NCBI GenBank assembly: GCA_951406725.2
Contig: OX597815.1
Location: 102,920,001 to 102,984,000, forward strand
Origin: Octopus vulgaris
Lineage: Eukaryota
Direction of reading: 5' to 3'
Length of the DNA stretch: 64,000 nt
Below are positions 6,190-40,859 of this stretch, one piece after another. A model generated the notes under the pieces. That model saw only the letters and a list, made by a program, of their open reading frames with translations, made no database searches and was not told the DNA's origin. Within the stretch, counting starts at the first letter, position 1, and each line of letters begins with the position of its first letter. The translations under genes and the position numbers were made by a program.

Positions 6190-8113
6190 GTCAGTTCAAT
6201 AAGAGAAGAAGTGGTGAGTGAGAAGCAACCAGATCAAAGATTAACTAGTGCATCAATGATTAAAGTGTTAGGAAGAATGCCGAATTGGATGGGCCCAGGA
6301 CCAGATTTAGTTCAAGGATACTGGGTTAAGAAATTCCGTTAGCTTAAGTGGTAGGCTGAGGGAACAATTTCAGGATTGCCTTAATCGAAGAATAATACCA
6401 GATTTGGATGATTAGAGAAAGGACAATACTCATTATGAATGATAGGGGCCGGGGTAATACAGCTAGCAACTATAGACCAATCACTTACCATTAGTGTGGA
6501 AGCTATTAACAAGAATGCTTTCAGAAAGCATCTACGAGCCCTTTGTCAGCCAGACAAGAACCGAAAGGTTGCAGGAAGAAGGCTAGAGGAACACATGATC
6601 TATTACATATAGACAAAGAAGTTCTACATGAAGTACAAGCTAGAAAGAAAAATCTAACAATAACATGGATAGATTACATGAAATCCTATGACATGATCCC
6701 ACACTCAAGGATAAGTGAATGTTTGAGTATATTGAGTATAGCAGAAAACATAACAGAATTAATTAGCTTTAGCATGAGTGTGTCACTCTACTCAGGTGAC
6801 ACACTCTTAGGGAAAGTTAATTTCAAAAGACGTATTTTACAGTGGAGTTCGTTGTCCCCTTTAATATTTGTCTTATGTTTGATCCCCCTCAGTTTAGTAT
6901 TAAGGAAGGCACAGGCAGGGTTTCTGTTCAGAAATAGTAATGGAAAAATTAACCATAGATGATTTGAAACTTTTTAGTAAGAAGGGAAAAGAGATTCCTT
7001 AATACAGACTGTAAGACTCTTCAGATAAGATATAGGCATGAAATTTGGCATAGGTAAGTGTGAAATATAAGTCATGAGAAGTGGACAGGGAGTGAACAAC
7101 GAAGGCATCCAATTACCAGATGGCCAGACATTAGAATCATTGAAAGGAGGAGAGAGTTATAAGTATCTAGGAGTATTAGAATCTGACAGAGTAATAACTA
7201 CAAAAATGAAAACGAAAATTAAGGAGTACATCAGAAGGGTGAGGAAGCTAATGAAATCAAAGCTAATTGGTCCGAATCTAGGGAAGGTTTAAATACTTGG
7301 GCAGTATCATTACTTAGATACTCAGCAGCTTTTGTAGATTGTGCAAAAATTGCATTAGCAAAGCTATACAGAAGAACTAGGGAATAATTCAATATGAATG
7401 GAGGACTCCACCCAAGGAGTAATGGAAAATCTTGTTAAGATTATCCCAACCGAGAAAAGGTGGAAATAGAAGACTACGTGGAGTTAGAGTAGATACAGAC
7501 TGCTATGTAGGTAATAGTGAAGAAGGCACCACGACAACATAGAAGGCACCACGACAACATAGAAGGCACCACGACAACATATTGGACACTTTGCAACAAC
7601 TATGAACTTGACAGAGCAAAAAATTGTACGACCACAAACCCGAAGGCATCATCGAAAATGATAATGCCAAGAACCTGTGGGATTTTATTCAGTGCAACCA
7701 TGAGATAGAGAATAGGAAGCCAGACATAGTGTTAATTGAGAAGGAAAGCAAACAGTGCTGGATCATAGATATAGCATGCCCAGCTGACAACAAGGTATGC
7801 GAAAAGGAAGAGAGAAAATCAAATCGAGAGATATGACAGGTTAGCTTGGGATGTTAAGCAGTTGTGGTCGCTGAAAAAGGTGGCAGTAGTAACATTAACT
7901 GTCGGAACCTTGGCAAGAGTGGGTAAAAATCTTGAGAAGTACATAGAACAAATAGGGGGTGCAATAAGGGTGGAGTACCTGCAGAAAACAGCACTGCTAG
8001 GAACTGTTCCGGAAGGTGCTCGAAAAATAAGAGGTGCTACATTAGTTCACTGGTAGTGAACAGCTGACACCGTAGTACATCTCCAGCGTTAGAAGCTGAA
8101 GCTTTGCAAAGGC
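6190..8113 (+). mobile_element. Dong/R4-type (REL-endonuclease) non-LTR retrotransposon, degenerate, apparently chimeric, with (TAA)n tail
   Basis: RT motifs MPNW.GPGPDLVQGYW, WIDYMKSYDMIPH, SLSPLIFVLCLIPLS and YKYLGVLE; REL motif NRKPDIVLIEKESKQCWIIDIACP; followed by (TAA)n/(CAA)n at 8114-8224. Confidence 0.85.
7521..7580 (+). repeat. 3 x 20-bp perfect tandem repeat (AGAAGGCACCACGACAACAT)
   Basis: Directly visible; lies at an internal junction of the Dong/R4 element. Confidence 0.95.
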
Positions 8114-9901: not shown

Positions 9902-10050
9902 TGTCTGTTTCTCTGGCGATCTATAAATTATCTAGTTATCTACTAGTCGATCTACATTTACTTACGTATAAACAAAGACATTTACATAAAGGCATATGTA
10001 TCCTTCATTTACGTAACTATGTATTTAACTTACTATCTTTCTCTATAAAA

Positions 10051-11708
10051 TTGGTTGCTGATGGTGATGTTGGGGTTGTCAAGGTTGGTACGATGAGCTG
10101 GTTAAGCGAGCATTTTGGTGTTGGCTATGTTCACTTTCAGGCCGAAGGTTTGATAAACTCTGCTGAAGTTGTTTGTTGAGGTTTGGAGGTCCTCTGCAGT
10201 TGAAGCTGGGACTGCGTTATCATCAGCGTATTGAATCTCAGTGATCTTGTGCTCTCGACAGTGACATATTGATCGGAAACGCGAGATGTTGAAAAGTCCG
10301 CCATCAAATCTACATCTGAGTTCCACTCCAGGGTTGTCTGTTGGAATCTCGGAGAGCATGGCAGCGATTTAGAGAGAAAACAGGGTTGGAACAAGAACAC
10401 ATCCCTGCTTCAGGCCACAGGTGATGTTGATTTCTTCAGAGATGTCAGAATGATAAAGGACTCTTCCCCTCATTTCATCATGGAAACACTTGATCAGCGA
10501 AATGAAGCCTCCAGGACAACCGTAACGATGCAGGATATCCCACATGACCTCTCTTGGGACACTGTCGAAAGTTTTCTCCAAGTCGTAGAAGATGAAAAAG
10601 ACAGGTTTCTGCTGCTCCTCGCACTTCCCCTGGATCTGACGTGCACAAAAGATCATGTCGATGGTACCTCTTGACCTTCTGAAACTACACTGTGGCTCAG
10701 GAAAGTCTGACTCAGCTACTACTTGGAGATGTAACAAGATTAGGCGATAACCTTGCCTGCGATTGAAATCAGAGAGATGCCACGATAGTTGCCACAAAGG
10801 CTCCTATCCCTTTTCTTGTAGATGGTAACAATAACTGCATCTTTGAGATCTTGAGGAAACCGATCAATTGAGGTCATCGAGGACTTCTGCTATCTTGAAA
10901 GTTTTCTGTTACCCACTGTAAGGATATCGAACATCGCATCCAATCAGGTCATACCCCTTTTGGTCGTCTCAAAACCAGAGTATTTTGCAACAAGGATCTG
11001 ACATTCAAAACGATGCTCATGGTCTATCGGGCTGTTGTCGTATCAACTCTGCTCTACGGGTGTGAAACCTGGACTGTTTACCGTAAGTATATGAAGAAAC
11101 TAGAGCGGTTCCATCAATCCAAAGTCGCTCTATCCTGAACATCAACTGGAAAGATCGCATCAGCAGCAACTCTGTGCTTGAAAGATAAGGTCTCCTGGGC
11201 ATCGAAGCCTTGGTCATTGAACATCGTCTCCAATGGTCAGGTCATGCCCGTCGGATAAATGAGCATCGCCTTCCCAAGGTCTGTCTCTACAGTGAACTGT
11301 CTGAATGAAAACGTCCTCGTGGAGCCCTCTTGAGGCGGTACAAAGACCAACTCAAATCAACCATGAAAAGCACCAGCATCGACCCCGTACACTGGGAAGA
11401 TATCTCGGCAAACAGACTCCTCTGGAGACACACCATCGAAACGGGTTCTGAGGACTTCGAGAAAGCCCGAGTTGCAAGAGCTGAACAAGTTGCAAGAGTA
11501 AACAGCGCGTTCTCCTTCCCAAACCAGCCCCTTCTATCCCTTGTCCGCAATGTCCCCGTATGTTTCATGCAACTCTTGGATTGCGGAGCCCTATGCGGTT
11601 CAAACACCCAGGAAAATGAACTGAATTGCAAGCTTGGAAACACGAGACACGGCCAACTAACTAACTAACTAACTGACTGACTGACTGACTAATTAACTAA
11701 CTAACTAA
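10051..11708 (+). mobile_element. RTE-clade LINE, 5'-truncated, with 5' inversion (10051-10860 inverted), (ACTA)n tail and 11-bp TSD
   Basis: Minus arm: PEPQCSFRRSRGTIDMIF, DLEKTFDSVPR, GLKQGCVL, QYADD. Plus arm: IEVIEDFCYL, TLLYGCETW, RYKDQLK. TCTCTATAAAA occurs at 10040-10050 and 11709-11719. Confidence 0.9.
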
Positions 11709-12363
11709 TCTCTATAAAAGCATATTTTTAGAAAAACATGCATCCATACATACATTTATAAATTTTATATCCGCATACATAGACTAATACATTTGTGTGA
11801 CCCCTCTTCTAACAGTTGTTCTCAATATTTATGTCTTAACATAAAAATGAAATAAAATTACATCATGAAAATCTAAATGTCTTGATGACTCTTGTAATAA
11901 ACGCTTTATGTAAAAGAAAAGTAAGTAGTTCTATATTTTCATTTAATATGAGTCATTTACGTATAAAAAATACAAATATATAAATATACGTTTTTTTTTT
12001 GTAAAGCAAATCGTTATTCATGTCTTATATCGATTTATTAGTGTATAATTATCAATGACTTTAATTAGGTTCTTATGCAGTTCAATAAGATGAGATGTCC
12101 ACCCGTAATTAGTTTTAAGTTTGCGTATATGTACTAATTCAGATCTGTCGGAAAGCATTTGTTGTCGTGAAACTGTTTCAGTTTCCAATTAGAGGTCCTT
12201 GTATTAAGATTCGCCAATTGATATCTACATCTAAGTTTTGAATAATTAGAAAATATACGAAACTACATAATAATTAATTGCTATAGATAGAAGTGGACAG
12301 GATTTCAAAACATTTCATTTGTTAGTTCATGACGCAAATTGCATCTGCAAAACAATTACTATC

Positions 12364-12400
<37 letters not shown>

Positions 12401-12731
12401 TATATGAATTAAATACAGAAAACAGATAAACATATTATACTTCCTAATGAAGCTTATGAGAGAGTAGATAAGAGTATTAAAATGGAAACTCAAATGAAAA
12501 TGTAAATATACATACACGTTTTGTCCGAGAAAATGCTCATACATACACGGAACCTAAGTATTAATATCTGATGTCGCATAATGAAAAATTACACGTACAT
12601 GGTATCATAATAAAGTTTTTCCTAATCCTCTCTGTTCAATAAAGTCAATCTCACCCCCAAGTCAGTAAAGATATTGAGATTAAATGATAACTGGATCCGT
12701 CTTCCTCACCCCATTCTCGTATGTGCGCTTG

Positions 12732-12732
<1 letters not shown>

Positions 12733-12807
<75 letters not shown>

Positions 12808-12825
12808 GACGTGTGTGTATGCATG

Positions 12826-12888
<63 letters not shown>

Positions 12889-12912
12889 TGTCTGTATATA
12901 TATATATATATA
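12733..12912. repeat. (TATC)n and (TA)n microsatellites
   Basis: Direct. Confidence 0.9.
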
Positions 12913-13109
12913 AGAAAATGGAGGGGATCAAGAGGTGGTATTCGTCAACTTTTAGACATTATATTATGTCTATTTATTTTTTTAAAATCACAGTTATAAC
13001 AATATAACAATATACATACATGTGTAACATATGCTTTTCATATATAATATATAAAAATACCAGTACACCAGTAATTTAGTAAAATATATAACGTAGAGCA
13101 TAGAAAGTA

Positions 13110-13110
<1 letters not shown>

Positions 13111-13196
<86 letters not shown>
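13111..13196. repeat. (TA)n microsatellite, left flank of the ribozyme array
   Basis: Direct. Confidence 0.95.
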
Positions 13197-13198
<2 letters not shown>

Positions 13199-13423
13199 CA
13201 ATACAATATAGGGTGCCAAAAAAATTTTGTAGAATTCTTTTGCCACCAGCGGCCTAGTGGGAAAAAATTAAATAGTCATAAACCATTTTTAAGTTCAACA
13301 TAACAATCAAGGAACGGCCATAATAGGCCATTCACCCACTAGAAATAACATCCAAAAGCTTTAACCGCAAAATAACATTAATTCCGTAAACCAGGAGAAA
13401 ATTGAAAAACATTTACCCTGTAA

Positions 13424-13528
13424 TTTCTTAGACGATGCACCGTTTCATCTACCGTTTAATGGTAAACTAACCTGATTAAATTAAATCAAGCCAATCCACC
13501 ATAGGCCCTTAGACTCATCAGTAAGAAA
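13424..13528 (-). ncRNA. Type I hammerhead ribozyme (copy 1)
   Basis: Reverse complement of the motif at 14558-14662. Confidence 0.85.
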
Positions 13529-13912
13529 TAGCCAAGTCGGGACAGATATTTTTCACGAGGCATTCCTCTTGCTACCTCGGCAATATCTGACCTAAAATTT
13601 TCAAATCGTCGCACTCGCGCCAAATTTATCGGCAGCAAATAAATATAAGCCACCGATTCCATTACGGAACTAACCAGAAAATTCATAATTAATCAATATA
13701 GGGTGGCAAAAATATTTTGTAGAATTCTTTTGCCACCAGCGGCCTAGTGGGAAAAAATTAAATAGTCATAAACCATTTTTAAGTTCAACATAACAATCAA
13801 GGAACGGCATAATAGGCCATTCACCCACTAGAAATAACAGCCAAAAGCTTTAACCGCAAAATAACATTAATTCCGTAAACCAGGAGAAAATTGAAAAACA
13901 TTTACCCTGTAA

Positions 13913-14017
13913 TTTCTTAGACGATGCACCGTTTCATCTACCGTTTAATGGTAAACTAACCTGATTAAATTAAATCAAGCCAATCCACCATAGGCCCTTA
14001 GACTCATCAGTAAGAAA
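13913..14017 (-). ncRNA. Type I hammerhead ribozyme (copy 2)
   Basis: Reverse complement of the motif at 14558-14662. Confidence 0.85.
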
Positions 14018-14557
14018 TAGCCAAGTCGGGACAGATATTTTTCACGAGGCATTCCTCTTGCTACCTCGGCAATATCTGACCTAAAATTTTCAAATCGTCG
14101 CACTCGCGCCAAATTTATCGGCAGCAAATAAATATAAGCCACCGATTCCATTACGGAACTAACCAGAAAATTCATAATTAATCAATATAGGGTGGCAAAA
14201 AAATTTTGTAGAATTCTTTTGCCACCAGCGGCCTAGTGGGAAAAAATTAAATAGTCATAAACCATTTTTAAGTTCAACATAACAATCAAGGAACGGCCAT
14301 AATAGGCCATTCACCAGCGGCCTAGTGGGAAAAAATTAAATAGTCATAAATGGCAAAAGAATTCTACAAAATATTTTTGCCACCCTATATTGATTAATTA
14401 TGAATTTTCTGGTTAGTTCCGTAATGGAATCGGTGGCTTATATTTATTTGCTGCCGATAAATTTGGCGCGAGTGCGACGATTTGAAAATTTTAGGTCAGA
14501 TATTGCCGAGGTAGCAAGAGGAATGCCTCGTGAAAAATATCTGTCCCGACTTGGCTA

Positions 14558-14662
14558 TTTCTTACTGATGAGTCTAAGGGCCTATGGTGGATTGGCTTGA
14601 TTTAATTTAATCAGGTTAGTTTACCATTAAACGGTAGATGAAACGGTGCATCGTCTAAGAAA
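14558..14662 (+). ncRNA. Type I hammerhead ribozyme (copy 3)
   Basis: Stem I UUUCUUA/UAAGAAA; core CUGAUGA (14565-14571); stem II GUCUA/UAGAU enclosing a long hairpin; GAAA (14640-14643); stem III ACGG-UGCA-UCGU; predicted cleavage GUC^ after 14655. Confidence 0.85.
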
Positions 14663-15047
14663 TTACAGGGTAAATGTTTTTCAATTTTCTCCTGGTTTAC
14701 GGAATTAATGTTATTTTGCGGTTAAAGCTTTTGGCTGTTATTTCTAGTGGGTGAATGGCCTATTATGGCCGTTCCTTGATTGTTATGTTGAACTTAAAAA
14801 TGGTTTATGACTATTTAATTTTTTCCCACTAGGCCGCTGGTGGCAAAAGAATTCTACAAAATTTTTTTGCCACCCTATATTGATTAATTATGAATTTTCT
14901 GGTTAGTTCCGTAATGGAATCGGTGGCTTATATTTATTTGCTGCCGATAAATTTGGCGCGAGTGCGACGATTTGAAAATTTTAGGTCAGATATTGCCGAG
15001 GTAGCAAGAGGAATGCCTCGTGAAAAATATCTGTCCCGACTTGGCTA

Positions 15048-15152
15048 TTTCTTACTGATGAGTCTAAGGGCCTATGGTGGATTGGCTTGATTTAATTTAA
15101 TCAGGTTAGTTTACCATTAAACGGTAGATGAAACGGTGCATCGTCTAAGAAA
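15048..15152 (+). ncRNA. Type I hammerhead ribozyme (copy 4)
   Basis: Identical to 14558-14662, offset +490. Confidence 0.85.
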
Positions 15153-15537
15153 TTACAGGGTAAATGTTTTTCAATTTTCTTCTGGTTTACGGAATTAATG
15201 TTATTTTGCGGTTAAAGCTTTTGGCTGTTATTTCTAGTGGGTGAATGGCCTATTATGGCCGTTCCTTGATTGTTATGTTGAACTTAAAAATGGTTTATGA
15301 CTATTTAATTTTTTCCCACTAGGCCGCTGGTGGCAAAAGAATTCTACAAAATTTTTTTGCCACCCTATATTGATTAATTATGAATTTTCTGGTTAGTTCC
15401 GTAATGGAATCGGTGGCTTATATTTATTTGCTGCCGATAAATTTGGCGCGAGTGCGACGATTTGAAAATTTTAGGTCAGATATTGCCGAGGTAGCAAGAG
15501 GAATGCCTCGTGAAAAATATCTGTCCCGACTTGGCTA

Positions 15538-15642
15538 TTTCTTACTGATGAGTCTAAGGGCCTATGGTGGATTGGCTTGATTTAATTTAATCAGGTTAGT
15601 TTACCATTAAACGGTAGATGAAACGGTGCATCGTCTAAGAAA
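15538..15642 (+). ncRNA. Type I hammerhead ribozyme (copy 5)
   Basis: Identical to 14558-14662, offset +980. Confidence 0.85.
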
Positions 15643-15762
15643 TTACAGGGTAAATGTTTTTCAATTTTCTTCTGGTTTACGGAATTAATGTTATTTTGCG
15701 GTTAAAGCTTTTGGCTGTTATTTCTAGTGGGTGAATGGCCTATTATGGCCGTTCCTTGATTG

Positions 15763-15795
<33 letters not shown>

Positions 15796-15796
<1 letters not shown>

Positions 15797-17853
15797 CAAA
15801 GTGGAGTTGTAGGGTACCGCACGAGTGGAATTATATACGAAAGAAGGTTTGAAAATGCAATTTTAAAAGATGTTTATTTACTTTACCGGTTTCACTCTTT
15901 GGAAAAAGATTGTCAAAAGCAACATGTAGAAGTTTGGTTGCGTTAATTATTGGTTGTTACAAAATGCTACATTACATATATACAGGTTTTGGTAACAAGG
16001 ACATGTTAAGGACATAAAAAAGTTTAACAAGTTCCTTAAAATATTGGGCACAAAAGATTACAACATAAATAATCATTCTCAAGAATATTATTAGTTCGAA
16101 AAGGTTTACATTATAATAGTAGGGAAGCTAAAACTGACCTATCCACCATGTTAACGTAAAATAATATTATCTATTTCAAGGGACACTGTAGATGTGTTTG
16201 GGTGGGGGGAAGGACGAGTAATGTGGAACTGAAACGAATTTTTCATTTTTGTCTCTCCTTCAAGCATCAATGATTTGGGGGATTGGCTTTAGAGGTCAGA
16301 ATGGTTTGGGTGAGTGTGTCTTTGTGTGTGTATATACATAAGTGGTGTGAATAGATGTGTCTGTGTGTTTGTAAACTCTGGTAGGATGGTATGTATATGT
16401 GTGCCCGTTTATCAACCGTGTGTGTGATTGTCTTGGTGTTGTGTGTGTGTGTATGTATGTGTGTAATTGGCATTTGGCATGGTGCTGTGTGTATATGTGT
16501 GTCTGTATGGAGGTCAGAATGGTGTGAGTGTGTGTGTGTGTATATATGTGTATACATGTGTTTGTGTGTGGGGGCTGTTTTTGATTGGTCCCAGGGTCCA
16601 TTGTGGTGTAAATAGATGTGTATTTTTTAAAAATGTGGTAGGATGGTGTGTGTACATGTGTGCCCGTTTGTGTGTGTGTGTATATGTGTGTGGTTAGTGT
16701 TTGTTAGTGTGTTGCGTGTGCGTTAGTGTGTATGTGTTTGTTCGTATGTGTGTCCATGTCTGTTGGGTATATCCGTGTGGCGTGTTTGTGTTGGTAATGA
16801 TTATGTGTTTGTGTGTGTGCGTATATATGGTGCGAGTGTGTGTGTCTTTGTGTGTGTGTATATATACATATACATATGTTTGTGTTTGTGTGTGTGTGTA
16901 TGAATGTGCATGATTGGTATTTGTCATGGTGCTGTGTGTGCGCACGTGTGTGTCTGTATGGGGGTCAAAGCGGTGTGAGTGTATATATATATATATGTAT
17001 AGATATACACATGTCTTTGTGTGTGTGGGCCGTTTTTGATTGGCCCCAGGGTCCATTGTAGTGTAAATAGATGTGTGTTTTTAAGATTTGGTAGGAAAGT
17101 GTGTGTATATATGTGCCCATTTGTGTGTGCGTGTATTTGTGTGTGTTGTGTATGTGTGTGGTTAATGTCTGTTAGTGTGTTGCGTGTGTGATAGTGTGTG
17201 TATGTGTTTGTTCGTATGTCTGTCCATGTGTGTTGGGTTTGTCTGGGTGGCGTGTGTGTGTTTATGCGTTTTGTGTGTGTTGGTATTGAGTATGTGTTTG
17301 TGTGTGTGCGTATATATGGTGCGGGTGTGTGTGTCTTTGTGTGTTTGTTTTGGATGTGTGCCTAGGGGCATGTTAGAGTATGTTTAGTTGTGGTCTGAAT
17401 TTTTGAATAAGATTATTTTCCCTATATTTGCCCAATATTTCAATGAACTTGTTAAACTATTTTATGTTCTTAACTTGCTCTTGTCACCAAAGAATGTATA
17501 TATATGTATTGTAGTAGTCTGTGTCAACCAATATTCTGTGCCTGCTTGAATATACAGATACAATACCAATATCCCACTGAACTTTTTAATAATTCCTTCT
17601 GGAAACTATCTTTAACATGTTCTTGAGAATGATTATTTATGCCCAATATCTTAAGGAACTTGTTAAACTTTTTTTATGTCCTTAACATGTCCTTGTTACC
17701 AAAGACTGTATATATGTAATGTAGCATTTTGTAACAACCAATAATTAACGCAACCAAACTTCTACATGTTGCTTTTGACAATCTTTTTTCCAAAGAGTGA
17801 AACCGGTAAAATAAATAAACATCTTTTAAAATTGCATTTTCAAACCTTCTTTC

Positions 17854-17860
<7 letters not shown>
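15796..17860. mobile_element. Penelope-like derivative with ~250-bp inverted repeats (15832-16085 / 17620-17860), inserted in (TA)n
   Basis: The inverted repeat pair is directly visible. The minus strand at 17385-17430 reads KYRENNLIQKFRPQLN, like a Penelope GIY-YIG C-terminus. Interior is TG-rich. Confidence 0.7.
16290..17350. repeat. Degenerate TG-rich tandem duplication, period ~455-470 bp
   Basis: GATTGG(T/C)CCCAGGGTCCATTG at ~16583 and ~17038; GTTAGTGTGTTGCGTGTG at ~16702 and ~17171. Confidence 0.75.
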
Positions 17861-17891
<31 letters not shown>

Positions 17892-18030
17892 TCACAAATA
17901 TAATGGATACCCAGGGGAAGCAACGAAACGTCATTAAATTTTTGACAAATGTGTAGGCCGGCTACAGTACGCTTACACATTTGGGTACGGAGTGGTTCAC
18001 AGTGGTATGTACAGCTAGATGAATTATTTT

Positions 18031-18180
18031 GAAGAAGAAGAAGAAGAAGAAGAAGAAGAAGAAGAAGAAGAAGAAGAAGAAGAAGAAGAAGAAGAAGAAG
18101 AAGAAGAAGAAGAAGAAGAAGAAGAAGAAGAAGAAGAAGAAGAAGAAGAAGAAGAAGAAGAAGAAGAAGAAGAAGAAGAA
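18031..18180. repeat. (GAA)50 perfect microsatellite
   Basis: Direct. Confidence 0.95.
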
Positions 18181-18509
18181 ACTAACTTTTTTTATGAACC
18201 GCACAGTGTGAGAATCATCAACCGCAGTCCCTGGCAAGAATATTCAGAGCGACGGCTAATTGTTTAACGGGGATTGAGAAGTCACAAATCGTGAACTTGC
18301 AGCACAACTGAGACTTAGTCAGAACGTATTTCAAAAGATGGTCTAAGAATTCAGGCATCAGAAAAGTATGCAAACTGGGTAACTCGGCAGTATACGTCAA
18401 ATTTTAAGGTGAGAAATTCGGAAGGCCGCATTGATTTGTTGGAAGCGTTTTAGGTTCCGTCCATTCTGATAACGGGTGTTTAGGAGCCACAAACTGAAGC
18501 TCAGTGTGC

Positions 18510-18591
<82 letters not shown>

Positions 18592-19044
18592 AAGAGTGAA
18601 AGAGAGAAGGGGCAAATATATTAAATATATCAAATGTTAAAATTAACATTGAAGTATGACAAGTTCAGCCTAACAACTTACCACCTCAACTAATACCACT
18701 TTTCTTATTAAACTATTCCTTCCCATTGTTAATTTTTCAAATTCCTCTAATCCACCACTTCCAGCCTCCATCATAGCCTCCCCATCCTCACAAGGAGTAT
18801 TCTTTACTTTCTCTCATTTTCCCATTTCAACCAAAAGCATTTAATACAACCACACCCAAAAGGAAGCTGACCTTTCAAACTATTCAATTTTATACACCCC
18901 TGCATACCACAGTATTCACACTCCAATACCAAAATACATTCATTATTCTATTAACCACTTCTATCTTGAATACCAACTCATTCCCCACCCGCTCCATCTC
19001 CCTCTATCTTCTCTCATACCTTTCTGCGCACACCATGTGTAGAC

Positions 19045-20848
19045 TCAGCTGGCGGCACTTCCGTGCCTGTAGGGTTTATCTCGAACTGACAGTACCCCTC
19101 GGCAGTACTGCCAGGCCACGGATCTCTGGAAGTTATCCATAAGCACCGGCTCGAAAGTTCTTCGAAACAGACCGGTTAGTTGATCTTCATCGATGCCCAG
19201 AGTTTTCCCGAGAACGTCGTCGCACTTTTCCGCCACTAGCCTTTTATAGAACGCTAGGGTAGAACTAACATCGACCGCATTGCCCGAATGGCTGTGAGCG
19301 CTTGTCGACACTCACGGTGCCAAGCGCCCCTCTTCAGTCTACGCCAAATCCTGGACTGCAGCTCAGTCAAAGAGACGAGCTGTGGGAAAGTTAGTCTAAC
19401 AAACGGTGACCACACCTGCTCATCGTCAAGGAAACGCTGGAGATGCCGTAGCCTGAGCGCATGTCTGCACCTCAGCAACCAAGGCATACCAAATTATCCA
19501 TTCAGCAGCTGTTGACAGCAGTAGGAGCGCCTGATCAGTGGAATCTGCTCCTTCCACAGAAAGCGGAGGAGTAAGCGCACAACCAGCAACCGGGGCAAAG
19601 GACGACGGTCAAGCGGTTATAGATGACGGATGCGATGTACGCTTTCGTCACCTCGGCTCGACTTTTCAGGGACAGCTTCCCCTCGGCCTCGTCACAGGAC
19701 AGGCAACCAACCACGAAATGTCTAATTCTGGTGGCACATCTGATATTTAACTTCCACCCACTCCGTGCAAGGTATGTTGGAAGGAGAAAAAGAGCCTCGT
19801 GTTTTCCCTGGACCTTTGAGTATTTTTGGGCCATTGCCTCTGTGAGGATCCTCACTTCCACAGAACCACATTGTCTCCCTTGTGTGAGGAAATCGATATC
19901 GGTTAAAAAGCTCTTCAATCACTTTTCTACTTGGATGTGTGACGCAGTGAAGATTTTCCTCATCTTTAGCGACACACATCTATATACGATGATCCTTCTG
20001 GCCATCTTCTTTAAATCTGTAGGGATAGCAAGCTTGGTTTTCTTATACCCTCTATTGAGGAGATTTTCCTATTTGCTCAGGTACACATATTTTCCTTCCA
20101 GGGAGATTTGTTCCTGCAATTTTGTTACTCCTGCAAAGGAGTTGTTTTTATCGGTACTGTTATTGTTGGTGTTGATTATATCGTTTTTGATGCTGGTGTT
20201 GTTCCTGTTGTTAGTTGGAGCCAAAGCGATGCTTTTATTTCTGATGATATTCATGTCGTTGACCGAAGCAGCCAAGCTACTTACTAATGGAGGGAAATCA
20301 TTTATATCGAAGCTGGGCTGCTTACTTGTTTCTCCTGTCAAAGCTTTGTTATTGTTGTTGCCTCTTGCTGTCACTGTTGCTGTTAAAGAAATTTGTTGCT
20401 CCTACAGTTGCTTTTGTTGTTGTTCGTAGTGGTAGTGGCAGAGGGATGATGGCAGTGGTGTTAGAGTTGTTGTTGTTTGTGATTGGGATGGTCATCTTGC
20501 CTGCTTGTTTGTCTAGTAGTCATGTCAACAGGCGAAGTCCAGTCACCCTCTCTCATTTTTGTAGCAGGACACTCCTCTGTAATCGACGACTGAAACTTCC
20601 TCCAAATTATTCGCTGCTGCTATTGAGCAATGTTCTGAATAAAAGAATAAAAGCTGGAATAAATTTGATAAAACTCTCAAGAAATAGAGGGACTTTTAAC
20701 CAAAAGGGAACTCACCACCAGAAGAAGGATCCCTTAATCTCCACTTTGGTTGAAAATGACAGGAAAGCACCACTATTTTCCGGAGAATCTGACGATTTTC
20801 GAAAACAAAATACGGTGCCGAGATCAAGGAAGGCTTCCTCGGCTAACA
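19045..20848 (-). mobile_element. Internally deleted L1/Tx1-like LINE (5' UTR + ORF1 N-half fused to ORF2 C-terminus)
   Basis: 20848-19700 is homologous to 57955-59040 (5' UTR, ORF1 TDIDFLT.G). 19680-19045 is homologous to ORF2 3' of 8225-9592 (LSLKSRAEV, AWQYCRGVLSVRDK). Confidence 0.75.
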
Positions 20849-21400
20849 GCCGGGGGCTGCGAAATTTTTTTGCCACGAGAGTCCTGTACCCCAGTTATGA
20901 ACTCATTTGTATACAACCATTCAGAGCTCAACTATCAAACTAATTTATGAGCGCATAACAAGTGATGGGCGATAAGATAGGGTCGCCTGGGTAAGGAATG
21001 ACCATGCTTCTTTTCTCTTTTAATAATGCTTCTTGTTCTTGTTATTGTTTCAACCATGGCTGCCTCTGTGTAGTTATTTGTGTTGTATCGGGCTACTAGC
21101 ACAACATACTCTCCCCACATTTACCCCATCTTCATCTTTACTATATGGGGCCCTAACAAAATACGATAATAGTCATAGATGCAAATTTGTCTAATTACTT
21201 GTCTCCTAAAATCAAGCATAACAGATTGGTTGTTTTTAACACATTCACGAATATTATGCTGAGCTTTGCGTCTAGGCATAATCTGAGATCTGAACGGTGA
21301 AAACAAAGTCAAGGTGAGCTCTGATTGGCTGTATGTAAACGAGTTCATTTCTGGGGTCCGTAACTCTCGTGAGAAAAGAAATTTCGCAGCCGAGGCCCGG
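20848..21400. mobile_element. MITE / non-autonomous DNA transposon with ~90-bp imperfect terminal inverted repeats
   Basis: GGCTGCGAAATTT..CACGAGAGT..ACCCCAG..ATGAACTC..CAGAGCTCA (20855-20930) is mirrored at 21315-21392. Confidence 0.7.
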
Positions 21401-21404
21401 TCGT

Positions 21405-22935
21405 AATCCAGCAACTGCTAGCCATGCTACAAGACATAAGAGGAGCAAACAATTAAACGTGATGGTTATGGAGTGTTACTACCGGGGCGCCTGGGTGGAA
21501 AAAGATCGGTGTAAGTGTGAAGGTCGAACACCTACAAAAATTAGTTGCTGACTAGATAAGGGGCTACTCCACCCAAAAAGTGACACAGACTGTATATACC
21601 AAGAAAAAGAGGGGGAACAGGAATGATTGGATGCGAACACATCTGATAGATTTCTGATAGATTTCTTAATACAGACTGTAAGAGTCTTCAGCAAAGATAT
21701 AGGCATGGAATTTTGCATAGATAAGTGTGCAATATTAGTCACGAGAAAGGGACACGTAGTCAACAGCGAAGGCATACAATTACCAGATTGATGGTCAGAC
21801 ATTAAAATCATTGAAAGGAGGACAGTTATAAGTATCTAGGAGTATTAGCATTAGGGTACTAACTACAGAAATGAAAACGAAAACTGAAACGGCGTACATC
21901 AGAAGGATGAGCAAGCTAATGAAGTCAAAGCTAAATGGTCCGAATCTAGGGAAGGCTGTAAATACTTGGACAGTATCATTACTTAGATACTCAGCAGCTT
22001 TTGTAGATTAGACAAAAACTGAATGAGCAAAGCTAGACAGAAGAAGTAGGAAAGAATTCAATATGAATGGCGGACTCCAACCGAAATGGTTAATATCAGT
22101 AGAAGACTGCGTGGAGTTACAGTAGATATAGACTAATATGTAGGTAATAGTAAAGAAAGTTTATTAAAAGTTACTAGAGTCACAGCAAGACATAGGGAAA
22201 CCAAAACATCAAATGAAGTTAAAAACGAGAAAAAAGAACAAAACTTATCTGATTGGCAGGAGAAGGAGTTGCGTGATAGATTCCCAAAGATAGTTTCAGC
22301 AAATAGTTGTAGTGGGACATGTTTATGGTTGCAGAAAGCACAAGGTTGAGCATTAAGGACTAATTCAATAAAATCTAAGATAGACAAAAACCAAGTTGAT
22401 TCCTAATGTAGATTATGCAAATCAAAAAAAGGGAAGTGTTATTCACATAGTAAGTAAATGTAGCATGCTGGCACAGAAAGAATACAAGAGAAAATATGAC
22501 TATATACGGAAAGTAATTCACTGGGATCTGTGTAGAAAGCTAAGATTTACCCATACTGATAAATGGTATGAACATAAACCTAGTAAAGTACTAGAAAGTA
22601 AGAAATATTAGATGTTGTAGGACTTCAACATTCAGACTGACAGAGTAATAGAAGCTAGAAGGTGATTTGGTAGTAGTAGAAGATAAAGTGAATAGAAGGT
22701 GACGGTTAATTGACTTTGGAGTCCTAAATAATGAAAGCATTATATGAGAAGTACAGAAAAAATGACATAGTACCAGGACCTAGCTATTGAATTACAGAGA
22801 CTATGGGAAGTGCATTGGGAACTATCCCTAAAAATCTGGACAGATGGGTAGAGGAAATAGGCATAAAACTCAGTTTAGTACAGCTGCAGTAAACCGCTAG
22901 AATACTTTGGAGTGTTCTTGGCATCGAAGGTTACT
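21405..22935 (+). mobile_element. Dong/R4-type LINE, degenerate
   Basis: RT C-terminus homologous to 7000-7510; zinc-knuckle region HIVSKCSMLAQKEYKRK..IHWDLC; REL region DFNIQTDRVIEARR; (TAA)n downstream at 23057-23117. Confidence 0.8.
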
Positions 22936-23055
22936 TAGGGTAACCCGATAAGGTCAATTGTTGTAAGTCCGATAGGAGGGTTCTTGACACCTAATTTTAC
23001 TTGTTATTGCCCGATGTTAGGATTTTTTCTTTCTCAACAATCTAATCCGTTAAGT

Positions 23056-23117
<62 letters not shown>

Positions 23118-23465
23118 TGTCTTGTCTTGGGGAAAAAGATGGGTTACAGCAAACATTCTGTTTAATACCACAGATTTGCTTGTCAGTTGTTTGACCTTAA
23201 CCAGTTGAGCATGTCCTTTAGTGGCTGACGATATGCGCATTTCTGATCAAGAGCAGAAGTAGTGGGGAGCATCATAACCACGTGTTCAGAGGAATTGTTT
23301 TGGTGCTTGGATAATTCACCTCTGGAAACATGGATGTTGAGTTCAACATCCTTAAGGGACCTAACCTAAGAGCGTGATGGGATACTTGACCTGAACAAAA
23401 TTCTTACTAGGCTCCACCTTCAAGGTCATGAGCTGTTTATCTTGATATGATATCGCTATGTCCGC
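23118..23465 (-). mobile_element. TAA-associated non-coding interspersed repeat (same family as 46112-46670)
   Basis: Reverse complement aligns to ~46240-46595 (CTCATATCAAGATAAACAG, GGTCAAACAACTGACAAGCAAATCTGTGGTATT). Confidence 0.75.
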
Positions 23466-24989
23466 TTTCGAATCGATGTTCAGCAGAAAATGTGGTTTCC
23501 AAATGTGATGTTATAACGGAGACCAATGCTCATAACTACATCGGCTCCTCCGTAAACCTCAAGGGGCACTTACACAAGCACTTTTCATCTTTTAAAAAGT
23601 TAAATTTGATTTAAGTAGGGACATCATTAGGGTTGCTAAACAGTACCCAATCACTAGATATAGATGCAGGCTTTGCTGCATGGAGCTATCTGAACTTTTA
23701 AGGAGATTTAGTAGTGAAAATTTACTAAATAATAAACTAGACCTTTGTATTTCCTGTATACATAAGGCTACCGGCACGTTCAAATGCTTTAAAGACATTA
23801 AAGAACCTGTATTATAGCCCCCAGCCAAGGTCCAATGCAATTTACTCCCTCCTTCGCTAACTCTTAGCCTATCGATCTACCCATTCGTTTCTGAGCCCCC
23901 CTAGTCTCATTTTTCCCTTCACAAATAACTTCTCCACTCTTACTATACTTGCTTAGTATGCTATATGGAAGGAACTAACCATTCTATCTGTAATGTACGT
24001 GGTATTATGCAATAGCGATGACAATAACACTTAACTTCTATTAACCGTTTTGCACACCTTAGTTCGTTTCCATTTCTACTATTTAAGTACTCCGTACACC
24101 AACATACAGTTTTGGGCAGCGCTTATTATATATTAGATAGAACATCTATCCAAACCTCGTACATACGACTATTGTGTTCTGTTGCTTCGCCTGATTCACA
24201 CAAAAATGATTATACCATCCAATTTAGATATCAAGATTCCATAGTTAATCATTAGACTACTCCCCGTCGCTGGCCTCCCTGAATCCGATTTTCTATTTCC
24301 TCTTATCCCTAACTAGGTATATTTCATTATATAACCCCATCCTACTTTCAATTTTTAATTTTTAAATTTTAACTTTTAAACTCCTTATTGACAGGTAGCA
24401 CTCTACTTTACTATAACTTTAATTCCATAAGTTTGATATTATTTGATGGACCCCGTACTCTCCACACCCCCACTTCCAACCAATATCAACCGAATACCAC
24501 TAAATTGCTGTTTCTCTATCCCTCTCCTCTGATCATTTACCATTATCAAGCGACTCCCATATCCCGACCACATACATAATCGGCTCGTATGCCTTTATTT
24601 TTCGTTTCTTTTTCTTTCACCCTTACGTTTGATTTATTTATCTTCTCTCTTTCCCCATATCCTTGATTGTTTTGTTATCCCCTCCTTACTTACCACAACC
24701 CATAGCTCACCATGATAAATTTCTCCTGTATTCCACTCCAGTTTACCCATGATCTAGTCTAGCAGACTCCTTCTCATCCAAGTCACTGACCTTAGATATA
24801 AGATTACACACTTTAATGAACTACATTCTTAACCTAAGCTGCCAACATAGTTGCTTATTCTCCCATTCATAACAGGCCTCGACAGACATATCCCTGCCGT
24901 ATTCATGGATATTCTTTTGTTTTGTAAAATTTATTCTCATCTGATGTTTACAGTCTTTTATAATGATGTAATGCTCTCACTCTTCTATT

Positions 24990-25440
24990 AAAAGTTACGT
25001 AAGAAACAGTTGTAATGAGCTGACAATTATCTATCGGAGTGTTACATTTTAAACTCGAAAAAAGTTTTACTGTTCCGCTTCGAGATTGCATTTGTAATGA
25101 GCGAGTTAGCTGGTTGACTTCTTTTATCTCAAAATCCAAACTTATCCAGACTGAGAGTTAGGCATTTGCTTACAAAACCAAGTGCACCAATTATTATTGG
25201 TATAAATGTATAATCCGGACATACATACAACCTGAAGGTTTCGAAGCCGTTGTCCATATTTATCTTCTTTCGCTTTGATTTTGAAAGAAATATTCACATC
25301 ACCTGAGTAGCTGACCTCTATGGTGGTACATAAATATTCTTGTCTGTCCCAGACAACAATATCCGGCATGTTATACTTACATTTGACAAATGTTTTGATG
25401 GGAATCTTCCAGCAGTGTTCTTACACTGATATTTGCGAAT
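24990..25440 (-). mobile_element. REL-endonuclease non-LTR retrotransposon 3' fragment
   Basis: PDIVVWDRQEYLCTTIEVS..DVNISFKIKAKEDKY matches the PD...E...K..KY REL motif. Confidence 0.7.
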
Positions 25441-25709
25441 ATGCTTGAATGTTGTATGTATGTATACACGTATTTATGTGTATATGTATACGTATATGTG
25501 TGTGTGTTTGTGTGTGCGTGCGCAAGCGCGTGTGTATATCAACCCATCTACCCATTTCCTCTCCTTTTGAAGATTTTTACTGGGGTGTAACCTATAAACT
25601 TCCCCTCCATAAGATCTTCCTTTACTAACATTAAAACAGGTCAATGACAGATCTATATATCTGATCTAAAGAAAAAAGGTGTGTCAATGCAACCATGTTG
25701 AATTTTGAG

Positions 25710-26045
25710 CTCTATTGCTACTATTTAATCGACCCCGAAACGATGAAAGTGAAAATCAACTTCGAAGGAATTTGAACTCAGAACTTAAAAAAGACGGAAT
25801 ACTGATGATAACTTTGCCTGGCACCATAACGATTCGGTCGGTTCGCTGCTTTAAGGATCTGAAATACTGGTTTCTAGTTTGGGCATAAAGCCAGCGATTT
25901 CAGTGAGGGCTTAAGTTGATTACATCGACCCCTGTGTTTAACTGCTACTCCATCAATCTCGAAATGATAAAACACAGAACGTAAAGCCGGCCAAAATGCT
26001 GCTAAGTGTCTTATCCAGCATGTTAATAATTCTGAGAGTTCGCTG
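25710..26045 (-). mobile_element. Two adjacent degenerate SINE copies
   Basis: ATCGACCCC and GAATTTGAACTCAGAAC motifs shared with 35000-35212, 48621-48830 and 52533-52737. Confidence 0.65.
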
Positions 26046-26132
26046 TCGTCCTAAAGCCTACGAATATTAATGTAGTATTCTTTCATGATATCGCCAGCAG
26101 TGTAATACACACTGGCTTGCAGACGTGTGCAC

Positions 26133-26151
26133 GCACTCACTCACACACACA

Positions 26152-26236
<85 letters not shown>

Positions 26237-26262
26237 CAAACAAACAAACAAACAAACAAACA
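26133..26262. repeat. (CA)n and (CAAA)n microsatellite
   Basis: Direct. Confidence 0.95.
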
Positions 26263-28757
26263 TATTTCGAGTCATCAACAGGACATTTTTACGCTTTCTC
26301 TTACCTCCAGCCAGGAGAATATTTCAGAAATTTTCAATTTTCTCCTGCCCTTGAGACTCCATAAATTGAAGAAAAGTTTCGCAATTTGAAAGACATTTCA
26401 TAAAAAATGCTATGGCCATGAATCCAATAACACTGAAGCTAACTTAGCATTAGCATAATTCAATTACATACTGATTTGAAAAAATTCAACATCACATGTG
26501 TGACATAAAAATTAAGTGCTATGTTGAACGTGCTTCTGGTCACATACAGCTTTAATAATCGGAATTATGAATGTTACTTGTAACTATAATCAGACTATGA
26601 TGAAACTATTTCTAGTTTTTTGTTCTTGTTGAATTCATTGAAAAAGTTAGTTCGCATAAATACATATTTATAAATTGCTTTAATAAATTTTGAATTTGTA
26701 GTCTTATTGTAGTGCATTGCATTAATAATGTAATTCAAATATTTGCAGGTTTCACTTCAGGAAAATATGATTTTTAGATAAAACTCGGCGTGTTATATAT
26801 TTTTTTGTATTTTCCCATGAGAGACAGCTTGTGTTGAGCGAGTCTACAAACGGAATTTCAACTCAAAGTTGGATTTTAATTTCAGTTAGAATATATTGTT
26901 ATTCATTTACAAGATACATCCAATTTGTGGCAAAACTGGATCTATTGTGTCCCGACGTCGGGAAAATTTTACTTCAAATTCTACATTGGCTTTAAACATA
27001 TTCAATATCATCCTTATCTACATATATATCTTGTACCCTTAATTTACTATGAATTTCAAATATATTCTATTGGTTTCCTGCATGCAAAGTCTGATCTAAT
27101 TCAAGTAAATAAATACAGTTCCTGTCAAAGATAAACTTATTTATTCACTCACTTCTAAAATCGTAAAGACAGTGGATAATTTCAACACACCGAACTTTCT
27201 TTCAATTTTTTTTATTATTGGGAAAGAATTACGTTTTCTCTCCCAAAGCTGCAGCTTCATAATTACAAATTCTTCGACAATGCTTCCATGGCATTTCATG
27301 ATTTCCCCCATGAGTGATTTAATGAAATTCATGCAAAACCTCAAGTCAGCGACTGTTGACTTATTCATTTTGAAAACGTTGAGTTCATTTTCCCCGATTT
27401 CTTTAGCCTTTTTCTAAAGAATTTCAAAGGTGGGTACGTATTGTCTCCACATCGTTAGAAAATGGTACTTGATCAATATTTTTCTACTATGCGCTCCACG
27501 AAATCATTTTTATAAGGTGTATTTTATTAAGTTTTCTGTAATTGTATATGCTTCCGGCACTTCTGCTTGAGGATAATCAAAACGGTGGGAAAAAAAGCAA
27601 AATAAAAAGCAAAACAAAAATATTTTTTGTGTTTTGACATAAAGGAAAATAATATAGTAATATAGCTTTGCTTTTGATTTAGTTCTAAAAAATTATTTTA
27701 AAATAGTCTTCATATAGATTTGTTTTACGTAGATGGACGTTTGTAAAACTGGATTTCAGTTACTGTTACTAGATAGAAATCTATTGACATTCATTCAACA
27801 TACACTCCTCTTCATTCAGTCTTATCAGCAGCCGAAGCAAAGGTGAAACTGTAAGCAATTATCATTTAATCATTACTTTCCTTCACTTATTTTCGCTTTC
27901 TTCTTGTTTTCATATTTGACGCTGTTATTCATGTAGTTTCGAGCTAAGTAACATTTCTTTTATTTAGTTTGCTTTAATTTCGCTTATTAATATTTGACTT
28001 ATTGATGTTTACCAGAGTGCAGTTTATTGATCATAGAAAGACATAATTGCCCCCAAATTTTATCCTCACTAAGAATACATTAGAAAGCATTCTGAACCAT
28101 CAATATCATGTATCATGCCTGAACCCAGTGTGTGACACCACTGGTCTATTCAGTAGAAATTATGCGAAAAACGTAAGCCACGACCCTGTTTGACACAGCA
28201 GTTACACATTAGTAGCTCTGCAGTGGGCATTCATGTCAGGTATCCTTCTCTTAATATTATTGTTTTGAACTCTCTTAAAAGGATAACAGGCTTTGCCATT
28301 ACTCCTCTGACAGAAAGAAAAGTGGGATGTATACACACACATATATGTATACACACACACATATGCATGTATAAGGAAATAAATAAGATGAAAAAACACA
28401 GAAGATTTGTTTTACGAGATTAAAGAATATATATCGTCATGACAGAAGTATTATACACTAACAAAAATAAGATTTTTTCCTCTAATAAAAGAAACGGTTT
28501 CGCTGAAGCTTTTCAATTGTTGAGTGTTAGATGCAATTCGAAATGAGAAGCTTTGCTTGTTAGTGGTGGCTGGGGATAATTGATAACCAAGGTATTTTTC
28601 TGTAAAAGGGAGATAAATCTGTAATTTTTCAATATGAGTTTATATTCAGGTCTGGCTTATATTTTTCGATAAATGAGGCCTCTTTAGTTAGTCGCACTTG
28701 TTGAAATCCACATTGGAAATTGATATATTGGGAATATATATACACACATATACCCAC

Positions 28758-40540: not shown

Positions 40541-40859
40541 TGTGTGTGTGTGTGTGTGTGTGTGTATGAATGCATGTATGTATGTATGCATATATGTATG
40601 TATGCATGTGCTTGCCTCTAGGCATGTTTTGATTTTAAGAAAAAATTGACAGCGACTATGATGTCTCTGTTCAATTCACACCCCCCCGCGGCCCAAATGC
40701 ATGTCTCCCTTCGTAGTAATTCATTTATAGCATACTAATATGCTTCTTTCGTTATCAATTTCCTTCTATCTATTTTTCTTCCGTTATTTTAGTTACCTGA
40801 CTTTTTTCAGCAGAAACATTAGTTTCGAAAAAGTACAAAACATTTAACTGCTTCTGACT

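What the first reader, a model, noticed from the sequence alone, without database searches (positions are those of the whole stretch)
13196..15766. Tandem ~490-bp units each carrying an intact hammerhead ribozyme: a candidate young retrozyme / circular-RNA system
Seen: five identical type I hammerhead motifs (stem I UUUCUUA/UAAGAAA, CUGAUGA, stem II GUCUA/UAGAU, GAAA, stem III ACGG-UGCA-UCGU, GUC^), one per 489-490-bp unit. Units differ by only a few bases, there is no credible protein, and (TA)n flanks both sides. Known: metazoan non-LTR retrozymes and Penelope terminal repeats are tandem repeats with type I hammerheads whose short palindromic stem III favours dimeric cleavage. Retrozyme transcripts are processed to monomers and circles and are proposed to be copied by Penelope-like RTs. 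Inference: read-through transcription would release 490-nt monomers (14656-15145, 15146-15635) able to circularise, and the array may be a reverse transcript of such a circle or multimer. The unit is at or above the long end of animal retrozymes I know of.
Basis: partly seen in the sequence, partly recalled or inferred. Interest (0 to 1): 0.93.

Follow-up and report, generated by a model that had tools for sequence, protein, structure and literature searches.

The report
Ribozyme repeat mobilised by Penelope retrotransposons
This is one copy of a young family of small, protein-free jumping elements that carry a predicted self-cutting RNA, and the shape of its insertions shows how a Penelope-type retrotransposon probably copies such RNA, most likely a circle, into both strands of the target DNA at once.

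Summary
The five hammerheads are real and identical, but the array is not one tandem run. It is two back-to-back arms: 13194-14350 (minus, 2 ribozymes) and 14351-15766 (plus, 3), inside (TA)n. The 490-nt unit belongs to a young dispersed family (428 exact ribozyme halves; 1,095 with sister families) whose stems covary.

Across 68 loci, all 40 two-armed inserts point outwards. In 35 of these 40, one arm ends at unit position ~236 and the other at ~131; none has two like ends. Six show 14-15-bp target duplications. Three protein-coding Penelope-like (PLE) families in this genome obey the same one-tail rule (15 of 15 readable pairs), matching the two internal RT start sites shown in vitro for a PLE.

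Both arms and nearly all units of a locus share one haplotype (4 of 982 sites discordant; 123 expected), pointing to a single-unit template read repeatedly, probably a circle.

Verdict: a new non-LTR retrozyme family, mobilised by PLE machinery. The class is known and 490 nt is unexceptional. The added value is insertion-level evidence for the helper class and a circular template. Cleavage, circles and the specific helper remain untested.

The parts
13111..13196 (.). (TA)43 left flank, the insertion target
   Evidence: 96 of 101 canonical family ends run into (TA)n
13194..14315 (-). Left arm, 2.3 units; outer (3') end at unit position 236, inner end at position 95 (position 1 = first base after the cleavage site)
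13194..13247 (-). Inferred RT start site '236': hairpin (unit 184-220) followed by an AU-rich tract that meets the TA flank
   Evidence: the role is inferred
13424..13528 (-). Type I hammerhead; predicted cut after the C at 13431
13431..13919 (-). Predicted 489-nt monomer between two cleavage sites
13913..14017 (-). Type I hammerhead; predicted cut after the C at 13920
14312..14350 (-). 39-nt re-copied piece (unit 149-187) at the inversion junction, overlapping the left arm by 4 nt of microhomology
14351..15766 (+). Right arm, 2.9 units; inner end at unit position 186, outer (3') end at position 131
14558..14662 (+). Type I hammerhead with a long hairpin in place of loop 2 and a 12-nt near-palindromic stem III; predicted cut after C14655
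14656..15145 (+). Predicted 490-nt monomer (reference unit), 37% GC, no ORF over 66 aa
15048..15152 (+). Type I hammerhead; predicted cut after C15145
15146..15635 (+). Predicted 490-nt monomer
15538..15642 (+). Type I hammerhead; predicted cut after C15635
15733..15766 (+). Inferred RT start site '131': hairpin (unit ~98-120) followed by an AU-rich tract that meets the TA flank
   Evidence: the role is inferred
15764..15795 (.). (TA)16 right flank

Best explanation
A non-autonomous non-LTR retrozyme inserted by a Penelope-like element (PLE) RT/GIY-YIG protein. (1) Read-through transcripts of an arm are cut by paired (dimeric) hammerheads into ~490-nt monomers, which are ligated into circles or held as nicked circles (inferred; known for coral, mussel and axolotl retrozymes). 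(2) The PLE protein nicks both strands of a (TA)n tract about 14-15 bp apart (target and duplication length shown from the copies; the enzyme is inferred). (3) Each target 3' end primes cDNA at one of two fixed internal sites on the RNA, positions ~131 and ~236, one site per strand (ends shown; priming inferred, with in vitro precedent). (4) Each RT runs round the same monomer for up to several turns, giving two outward-facing multimeric arms that share one haplotype (haplotype sharing shown; circle inferred). (5) The inner cDNA ends are joined, mostly by a few bases of microhomology or filler (shown). Some arrays later grow or exchange locally.
For: Family: 232 matches from 40 scored of 808 candidate places, full-length ones 97-100% identical; 428 and 1,095 exact pattern hits, controls 0. 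Ribozyme structure conserved across 13 copies of subfamilies about 70-80% alike: 94.5% of cells paired, 7 pairs with two-sided changes, 0 of 500 shuffles as high for pairing or covariation, slid controls 23-46% paired. Transmitted (locus-fixed) variants avoid the ribozyme stems and core: 0 of 36, 4.1 expected, P 0.012. Anatomy: 40 of 68 loci are two-armed and 40 of 40 diverge. 35 of 40 pair a 236 end with a 131 end, 0 have like ends and 5 are unclassifiable. 96 of 101 such ends run into (TA)n. Sister families: 17 of 41 loci had both ends detected, and all 17 are divergent and unlike. Exact 14-15-bp duplications at 6 loci. Protein-coding PLEs in G000 show the same one-tail rule in 8 of 8, 4 of 4 and 3 of 3 readable pairs. 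A purified PLE protein cuts and extends both strands, starts at two internal RNA sites that define the tail, and is predicted to be a dimer (PMC11167929). Single-unit template: 0.33% divergence within a locus, the same within and between arms, against 1.38% between loci. Arms are discordant at 4 of 982 sites against a permutation mean of 123 (minimum 83); 21 locus-private fixed variants, 12 of them on both arms; 145 of 154 within-locus variants are singletons. 231 of 231 counted cleavage-site junctions have no indel. In 5 of 34 loci, this window included, neither arm lies within the other, so neither can be a fold-back copy.
Against: No cleavage, ligation or RNA was measured. The ribozyme scores below Rfam's threshold. 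It has a G-U pair at the base of stem II (a mismatch in 7 of 13 relatives) and a long hairpin instead of a short loop 2, and its active fold lies 3.9 kcal/mol above the minimum-energy fold. Only 1 of 9 predicted Xenopus retrozyme dimers cleaved in vitro. For the anole PLE, hammerhead cleavage was dispensable and uncut RNA was the main template. Depletion of variants in the ribozyme is only borderline against the internal control (whole domain 2 of 36 vs 27 of 154, Fisher P 0.053). No PLE sharing sequence with the unit was found among four young families. Nine variants sit in several but not all units of a locus, so local duplication or conversion does occur. Of 16 flagged flanks only 6 showed a duplication; most of the others are interrupted by element-derived bases, but L035 and L085 look like real misses.
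Confidence: 0.68

Rival explanations
1. Same PLE machinery and the same two start sites, but the template is an uncut multimeric read-through transcript of an already homogeneous parent array. The hammerhead is incidental, and gene conversion or unequal exchange fixes variants.
For: Uncut RNA is the dominant substrate for the anole PLE in vitro. A young PLE in G000 forms 4271-bp tandems with no hammerhead found in 4,044 of those bases. Repeated variants occur in some arrays, e.g. three variants in 3-5 of 18 units at L032/L033.
Against: A new variant can only become fixed in all units of both inverted arms through a one-unit bottleneck: 36 fixed variants and 145 singletons against 9 intermediate cases. 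No two of the 40 two-armed loci share a junction, though long daughters should copy their parent's junction. Ribozyme stems covary and avoid transmitted variants.
Confidence: 0.22
2. The unit is the pLTR of an autonomous PLE that I did not find, and the arrays are 5'-truncated insertions of it.
For: The tail, inverted arms and TA targeting are PLE hallmarks. Retrozymes are reported to derive from pLTRs. PLE ORFs lie within about 1-2 kb of several loci.
Against: Arms run through up to 18 ORF-free units head to tail. In 68 loci plus sister loci none continues into an ORF; nearby PLEs end in their own TA tracts. There is no similarity to the 3' regions of four PLE families. Descent from a pLTR remains likely but does not make these copies pLTRs.
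Confidence: 0.07
3. Ordinary satellite or minisatellite spread by unequal crossing-over or a DNA-level process, with a chance or dead ribozyme.
For: Tandem organisation; some local expansion is visible.
Against: Short arrays are dispersed over many contigs. They have two fixed 3' ends, strict outward orientation, TA targets and target duplications, and the ribozyme covaries.
Confidence: 0.03

Closest known systems
Metazoan non-LTR retrozymes (coral, mussel, axolotl; PMC7229834; vertebrate survey 10.64898/2026.07.22.740005)
   Same: Non-coding tandem units with one type I hammerhead each, GC under 50%, no LTR-type layout, target duplication longer than 4 bp, highly folded unit, co-occurrence with PLEs.
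   Different: Inverted two-armed inserts with two fixed ends are not described in the parts I read. The unit (490 nt) is above the 150-450 bp of the 2020 paper but inside the 51-972 bp of the preprint. The hammerhead has a 68-nt stem II region. Circles and cleavage are shown there and untested here.
EN+ Penelope-like elements (Neptune/Nematis/Naiad; PMC8557442, PMC3846280) and the anole Poseidon element PAc (PMC11167929)
   Same: Head-to-head inverted arms, a 'tail' at one end only, AT-rich or (TA)n targets, partial tandems, type I hammerhead, two internal RT start sites.
   Different: No ORF. The spacing between the two ends is 105 nt, against 30-40 nt in the literature and 32, 56 and ~35-40 nt in three PLE families of G000. 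Every internal unit is complete, so the 'tail' is just an arc of the unit.
Non-autonomous Chlamys elements such as MRC1 (PMC8557442)
   Same: ORF-less PLE dependants with multicopy head-to-tail insertions.
   Different: That clade lacks canonical hammerheads and its dependants resemble their helper at the 3' end; no such helper was found here.
L1 twin priming (PMC2837659)
   Same: Both target strands prime cDNA on one RNA, giving two inverted pieces between target duplications.
   Different: In L1 the second site varies and the two pieces cover different parts of a linear RNA. Here both sites are fixed, and the arms overlap and exceed one unit (both arms over 490 bp in 18 of 40 loci).

Membership tests
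Metazoan non-LTR retrozyme | Short tandem units, each with a complete type I hammerhead | tested here: met
   (208 of 213 counted cores unchanged)
Metazoan non-LTR retrozyme | No protein-coding capacity; GC under 50% | tested here: met
   longest ATG ORF 66 aa, GC 0.37
Metazoan non-LTR retrozyme | Dispersed mobile copies with target duplications longer than 4 bp | tested here: met
   14-15-bp duplications at 6 loci
Metazoan non-LTR retrozyme | No LTR, primer-binding site or polypurine tract | tested here: inconclusive
   no LTR-type layout in 68 loci; PBS and PPT were not searched for specifically
Metazoan non-LTR retrozyme | Self-cleavage in vitro as monomer or dimer | not testable with these tools
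   folding only
Metazoan non-LTR retrozyme | Accumulates as unit-length linear and circular RNA | not testable with these tools
   needs Northern blot/RNase R or raw RNA reads
PLE-mobilised element | Head-to-head inverted arms with a tail at one end only (two internal RT start sites) | tested here: met
   40 of 40 divergent; 35 unlike-ended, 0 like-ended, 5 unclassifiable; 17 of 17 in sister families
PLE-mobilised element | AT-rich or (TA)n target | tested here: met
   96 of 101 ends
PLE-mobilised element | Sequence shared with the pLTR of an autonomous helper | tested here: inconclusive
   none with four young PLE families; other families not examined
Autonomous EN+ PLE (ordinary pLTR) | Terminal repeat flanking an RT plus GIY-YIG ORF | tested here: not met
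   0 of 68 loci join the unit to such an ORF
Rfam Hammerhead_1 (RF00163) | Score at or above the gathering threshold of 34 bits | tested here: not met
   22 bits, full model 1-45 matched, long stem II insert

The most novel reading that the evidence does not exclude
These inserts are a genomic record of two-site, rolling-circle target-primed reverse transcription. A PLE protein dimer holds one 490-nt RNA circle at two homologous hairpin-plus-AU-tract modules, primes both nicked target strands, one at each module, and copies the circle several times in both directions. That would link animal retrozymes to PLE machinery by mechanism rather than co-occurrence. It would also explain the PLE tail and inverted pLTR as products of a general one-site-per-strand rule, and give a minimal circular substrate for PLE integration.
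Probability: 0.5. Interest if true: 0.78.

Novelty: new member of a known kind. Interest (0 to 1): 0.56.

Why it matters
Two questions are open in the papers I read. The first is which machinery moves animal retrozymes: a 2020 review says their repeats show no motif that points to the helper, and the 2026 preprint leaves the mechanism open. The second is how PLEs make their tandem/inverted inserts with a one-sided tail. This young family records both. It carries the PLE-specific two-start-site signature without any ORF, and its haplotype pattern points to a one-unit template. The two start sites are mapped to within a few bases, and several recently active PLE families sit in the same genome. 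Circular versus linear template, and one RNA versus two, can therefore be tested directly in the published in vitro system. A protein that integrates multimeric copies of a small RNA circle into (TA)n would also interest people building RNA-templated insertion tools.

Tried and rejected
Expression: no RNA holder listed. 20 rows in 9 studies hold part or all of the unit, none on record as RNA. Four runs guessed to be RNA were laid. All are contigs that cover the unit with variant letters and cannot show strand, ends, level or circularity. Neither call is used for or against.

Helper search: there is no similarity between the unit and the 3' regions of four young PLE families (the weak L204 hits are in AT-rich flank). 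A pattern for the same stem III with a shorter stem II gave 3 hits, all deleted family copies. A search with the most diverged sister returned only sisters. Four single-ribozyme loci had no PLE ORF. A recalled Pfam accession was not in the library.

In vivo cleavage footprint: inner arm ends at positions 0-2 number 5 of 99 against 0.6 expected. One of these is a doubtful alignment, two come from one locus and TA microhomology may help, and the wider 1-21 excess is not significant after scan correction (P 0.32). It is kept as a hint only.

Fold-back (self-priming) as the general source of the second arm: only 5 of 40 junctions have inner ends within 5 nt of each other. In 5 of 34 loci neither arm contains the other, against 8.3 by permutation (P 0.12). 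It may explain a minority.

My first hammerhead scan had an offset error (redone in 44). The first structure string was out of register (redone in 65). One PLE-3 pair (L200/L201) was unreadable and was dropped before counting. Loci L076 and L097 were left out of the variant analysis, and L068, L076, L094 and L097 out of the inner-end analysis. Earlier findings of this scan: nothing returned.

Full report
OBSERVATION. The five hammerheads are at the stated place and are identical. Rfam Hammerhead_1 matches each over the full model at 22 bits, below the gathering score of 34, with a long insert in stem II. The repeat is two arrays, not one: 13194-14315 (period 489) and 14351-15766 (period 490). 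The first is on the minus strand and the second on the plus, joined through a 39-nt re-copied piece. Numbering the unit from the base after the cleavage site (window 14656), the left arm runs from position 95 out to 236 and the right arm from 186 out to 131. Both outer ends meet (TA)n. The unit folds far better than shuffles (z -7.07; ribozyme region z -4.90) and encodes nothing longer than 66 aa.

FAMILY. G000 is a 2.8-Gb animal genome; no tool named the host. The unit gave 232 matches from 40 scored of 808 candidate places, full-length ones at 97-100% identity. An exact 22-nt ribozyme half occurs 428 times, and a looser pattern covering sister families 1,095 times; reversed controls gave 0. 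Sister units of 474-475 nt are about 70-80% identical. On 13 ribozymes from these subfamilies the structure is 94.5% paired, with 7 pairs changed on both sides in stems I, II and the long hairpin. No shuffle of 500 reached the pairing or covariation score, and slid controls gave 23-46%. The invariance of the core in that set is circular, since I selected by it, and relatedness inflates shuffle tests. The base pair closing stem II is G-U in the window and unpaired in 7 of 13. Stem III is worth only -0.1 kcal/mol as a hairpin but -17.5 as an intermolecular palindrome, and the monomeric active fold lies 3.9 kcal/mol above the minimum. Cleavage is therefore more likely in multimers than in a monomer circle (inference; the dimer principle is in PMC4209133, first quarter read).

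ANATOMY ACROSS LOCI. I analysed 68 loci: the window, 39 best-scoring places and the 28 further places among the first 100 listed. Forty have two arms and all 40 diverge. Thirty-five pair an end at 231-240 with an end at 126-141, none has two like ends, and five have an unclassifiable end. The 28 one-armed loci end at ~236 (16), ~131 (11) or elsewhere (1). Of 101 such ends, 96 run into (TA)n. Both arms exceed one unit in 18 of 40 loci. Inner junctions mostly show a few bases of overlap or filler. Where the TA tract is interrupted, six loci show an exact 14-15-bp duplication. Ten other flagged flanks do not, mostly because the interruption is element-derived. In 41 further loci of sister subfamilies both ends were detected in 17, all divergent and unlike. 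Each end site lies 10-16 nt 3' of a conserved hairpin, and in the B2 sister unit both sites begin with the same 9-nt motif. No locus continues into a PLE ORF; PLE ORFs near L039, L049, L053, L059, L077, L104 and L128 are separate neighbours.

THE HELPER CLASS. G000 holds at least four young families with PLE-type ORFs. Each protein search returned 116-150 scored copies at 98-100% identity out of 9,948-26,489 candidates. The L053 type has RT and GIY-YIG matches. Three carry a CX4CxxC linker of the Neptune/Nematis kind (motif per PMC8557442, passages). I picked minus/plus neighbour pairs from these lists, so their orientation is by selection and the test is the ends. One arm carried a tail and the other none in 8 of 8 (32 nt), 4 of 4 (56 nt) and 3 of 3 readable pairs (~35-40 nt, read by eye; a fourth pair was unreadable), all ending in (TA)n. 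The tail and inverted copy are known PLE hallmarks (passages). Frangieh et al. (PMC11167929, main text read) show that a purified PLE protein cuts and extends both strands of AT-rich DNA, starts at two internal RNA sites whose spacing is the tail, and is predicted to be a dimer. The retrozyme thus carries a signature that paper calls unique to PLEs, with a 105-nt spacing. Which family is the helper I could not establish: none of the four shares sequence with the unit.

THE TEMPLATE. Outside homopolymers, units differ by 0.33% within an arm, 0.33% between the arms of a locus and 1.38% between loci (321 pieces). In 37 two-armed loci the arms disagree at 4 of 982 informative sites; permuting partners gives 123 (minimum 83). 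There are 36 locus-fixed variants, 21 private to one locus and 12 of those seen on both arms. Of 154 within-locus variants, 145 are in one unit only. An older sister set shows the same pattern (1.17%, 1.11%, 2.27%). Many singletons, many fixed variants and few intermediates are what a one-unit bottleneck at birth predicts, rather than gradual homogenisation (inference). No counted crossing of the cleavage site has an indel (231 of 231), and no locus shows a full haplotype swap between units, which argues against jumps between different linear monomers. Fixed variants avoid the ribozyme stems and core (0 of 36, P 0.012), though the contrast with post-insertion variants is borderline. A circle, or a monomer whose ends are held together by the ribozyme fold, is the simplest template.

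AGAINST. Uncut RNA was the main substrate for the anole PLE, nine variants are shared by some units only, 1 of 9 Xenopus dimers cleaved, and nothing was measured at the RNA level here.

COMPARISON AND NOVELTY. It works like, and meets the testable criteria of, a metazoan non-LTR retrozyme (PMC7229834, parts 2-4 of 6 read). That paper already proposes circle-templated tandem cDNA and PLEs as likely helpers. A 2026 preprint (parts 1-3 of 5 read; supplements closed) adds co-occurrence and pLTR homology and gives sizes of 51-972 bp. A review (PMC7761336, passages) says the repeats show no motif pointing to the helper. Six full-text searches found no paper describing two-armed retrozyme inserts with one-of-each ends, or within-locus haplotype fixation. 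The library lacks most subscription papers, and supplements I did not see may show such structures. PMC2837659 (passages) supplies the twin-priming model. A repeat-annotation paper checked on an untested guess about the host group has no mention of ribozymes in its main text (PMC13282606, passages).

VERDICT. A real, young retrozyme family; a new member of a known kind. PLE mobilisation is very likely (about 0.9) and a monomeric circular template likely (about 0.7). Interest 0.56, for making the helper and template questions directly testable.

Noticed in passing
L053:1-2620, L129-L174 (G000, many contigs): A very young PLE family (RT plus GIY-YIG, 775-aa frame, 26,489 candidates, 116 scored at 99-100%) forms exact 4271-bp head-to-tail tandems, has what looks like a further ORF upstream, and shows no hammerhead in 4,044 of 4,271 bases. 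Its 32-nt tail is simply the start of the next unit.
   Followed up: partly
L049:740-1909, L190-L198: A second young PLE-type family with frames up to 1,312 aa, ~4,585-bp tandem period and a 56-nt tail; no hammerhead found between tandem copies.
   Followed up: partly
L199:903-995; L032:3658, L063:1570 and 2651, L078:6958, L081:7495, L086:1420, L093:2352, L095:1461 and 2298, L105:2544: Unrelated type I hammerhead-like motifs with palindromic stem III are common in the flanks, suggesting many more ribozyme-bearing repeat families in this genome.
   Followed up: no
L205:443-874: A 90%-identical relative of the unit is nested in the TA tract at the end of a PLE arm. It is itself two-armed, and its cleavage triplet reads GUA rather than GUC.
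   Followed up: partly
L032/L033 (G000:C10:17474891-17483859): An 18-unit single arm in which three variants recur in 3-5 units, i.e. local duplication or conversion after insertion.
   Followed up: partly
L109, L112, L119, L175, L205, L070, L080: In several two-armed loci the 236-type arm is only about 20-125 nt long, as if the trailing RT stopped near the 131 site on the same RNA. Not tested statistically.
   Followed up: no
L067:3396-5732: Both arms stop exactly at the predicted cleavage site, giving a perfect inverted junction there.
   Followed up: partly
window 6510-6959 (+) and 40169-40675 (-): Fragments with RVT_1 and zf-RVT matches, probably LINE remnants unrelated to the finding.
   Followed up: no
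L106 and L107 (G000:C31): Two nearly identical two-armed sister inserts 13.8 kb apart, likely a segmental or assembly duplication.
   Followed up: no
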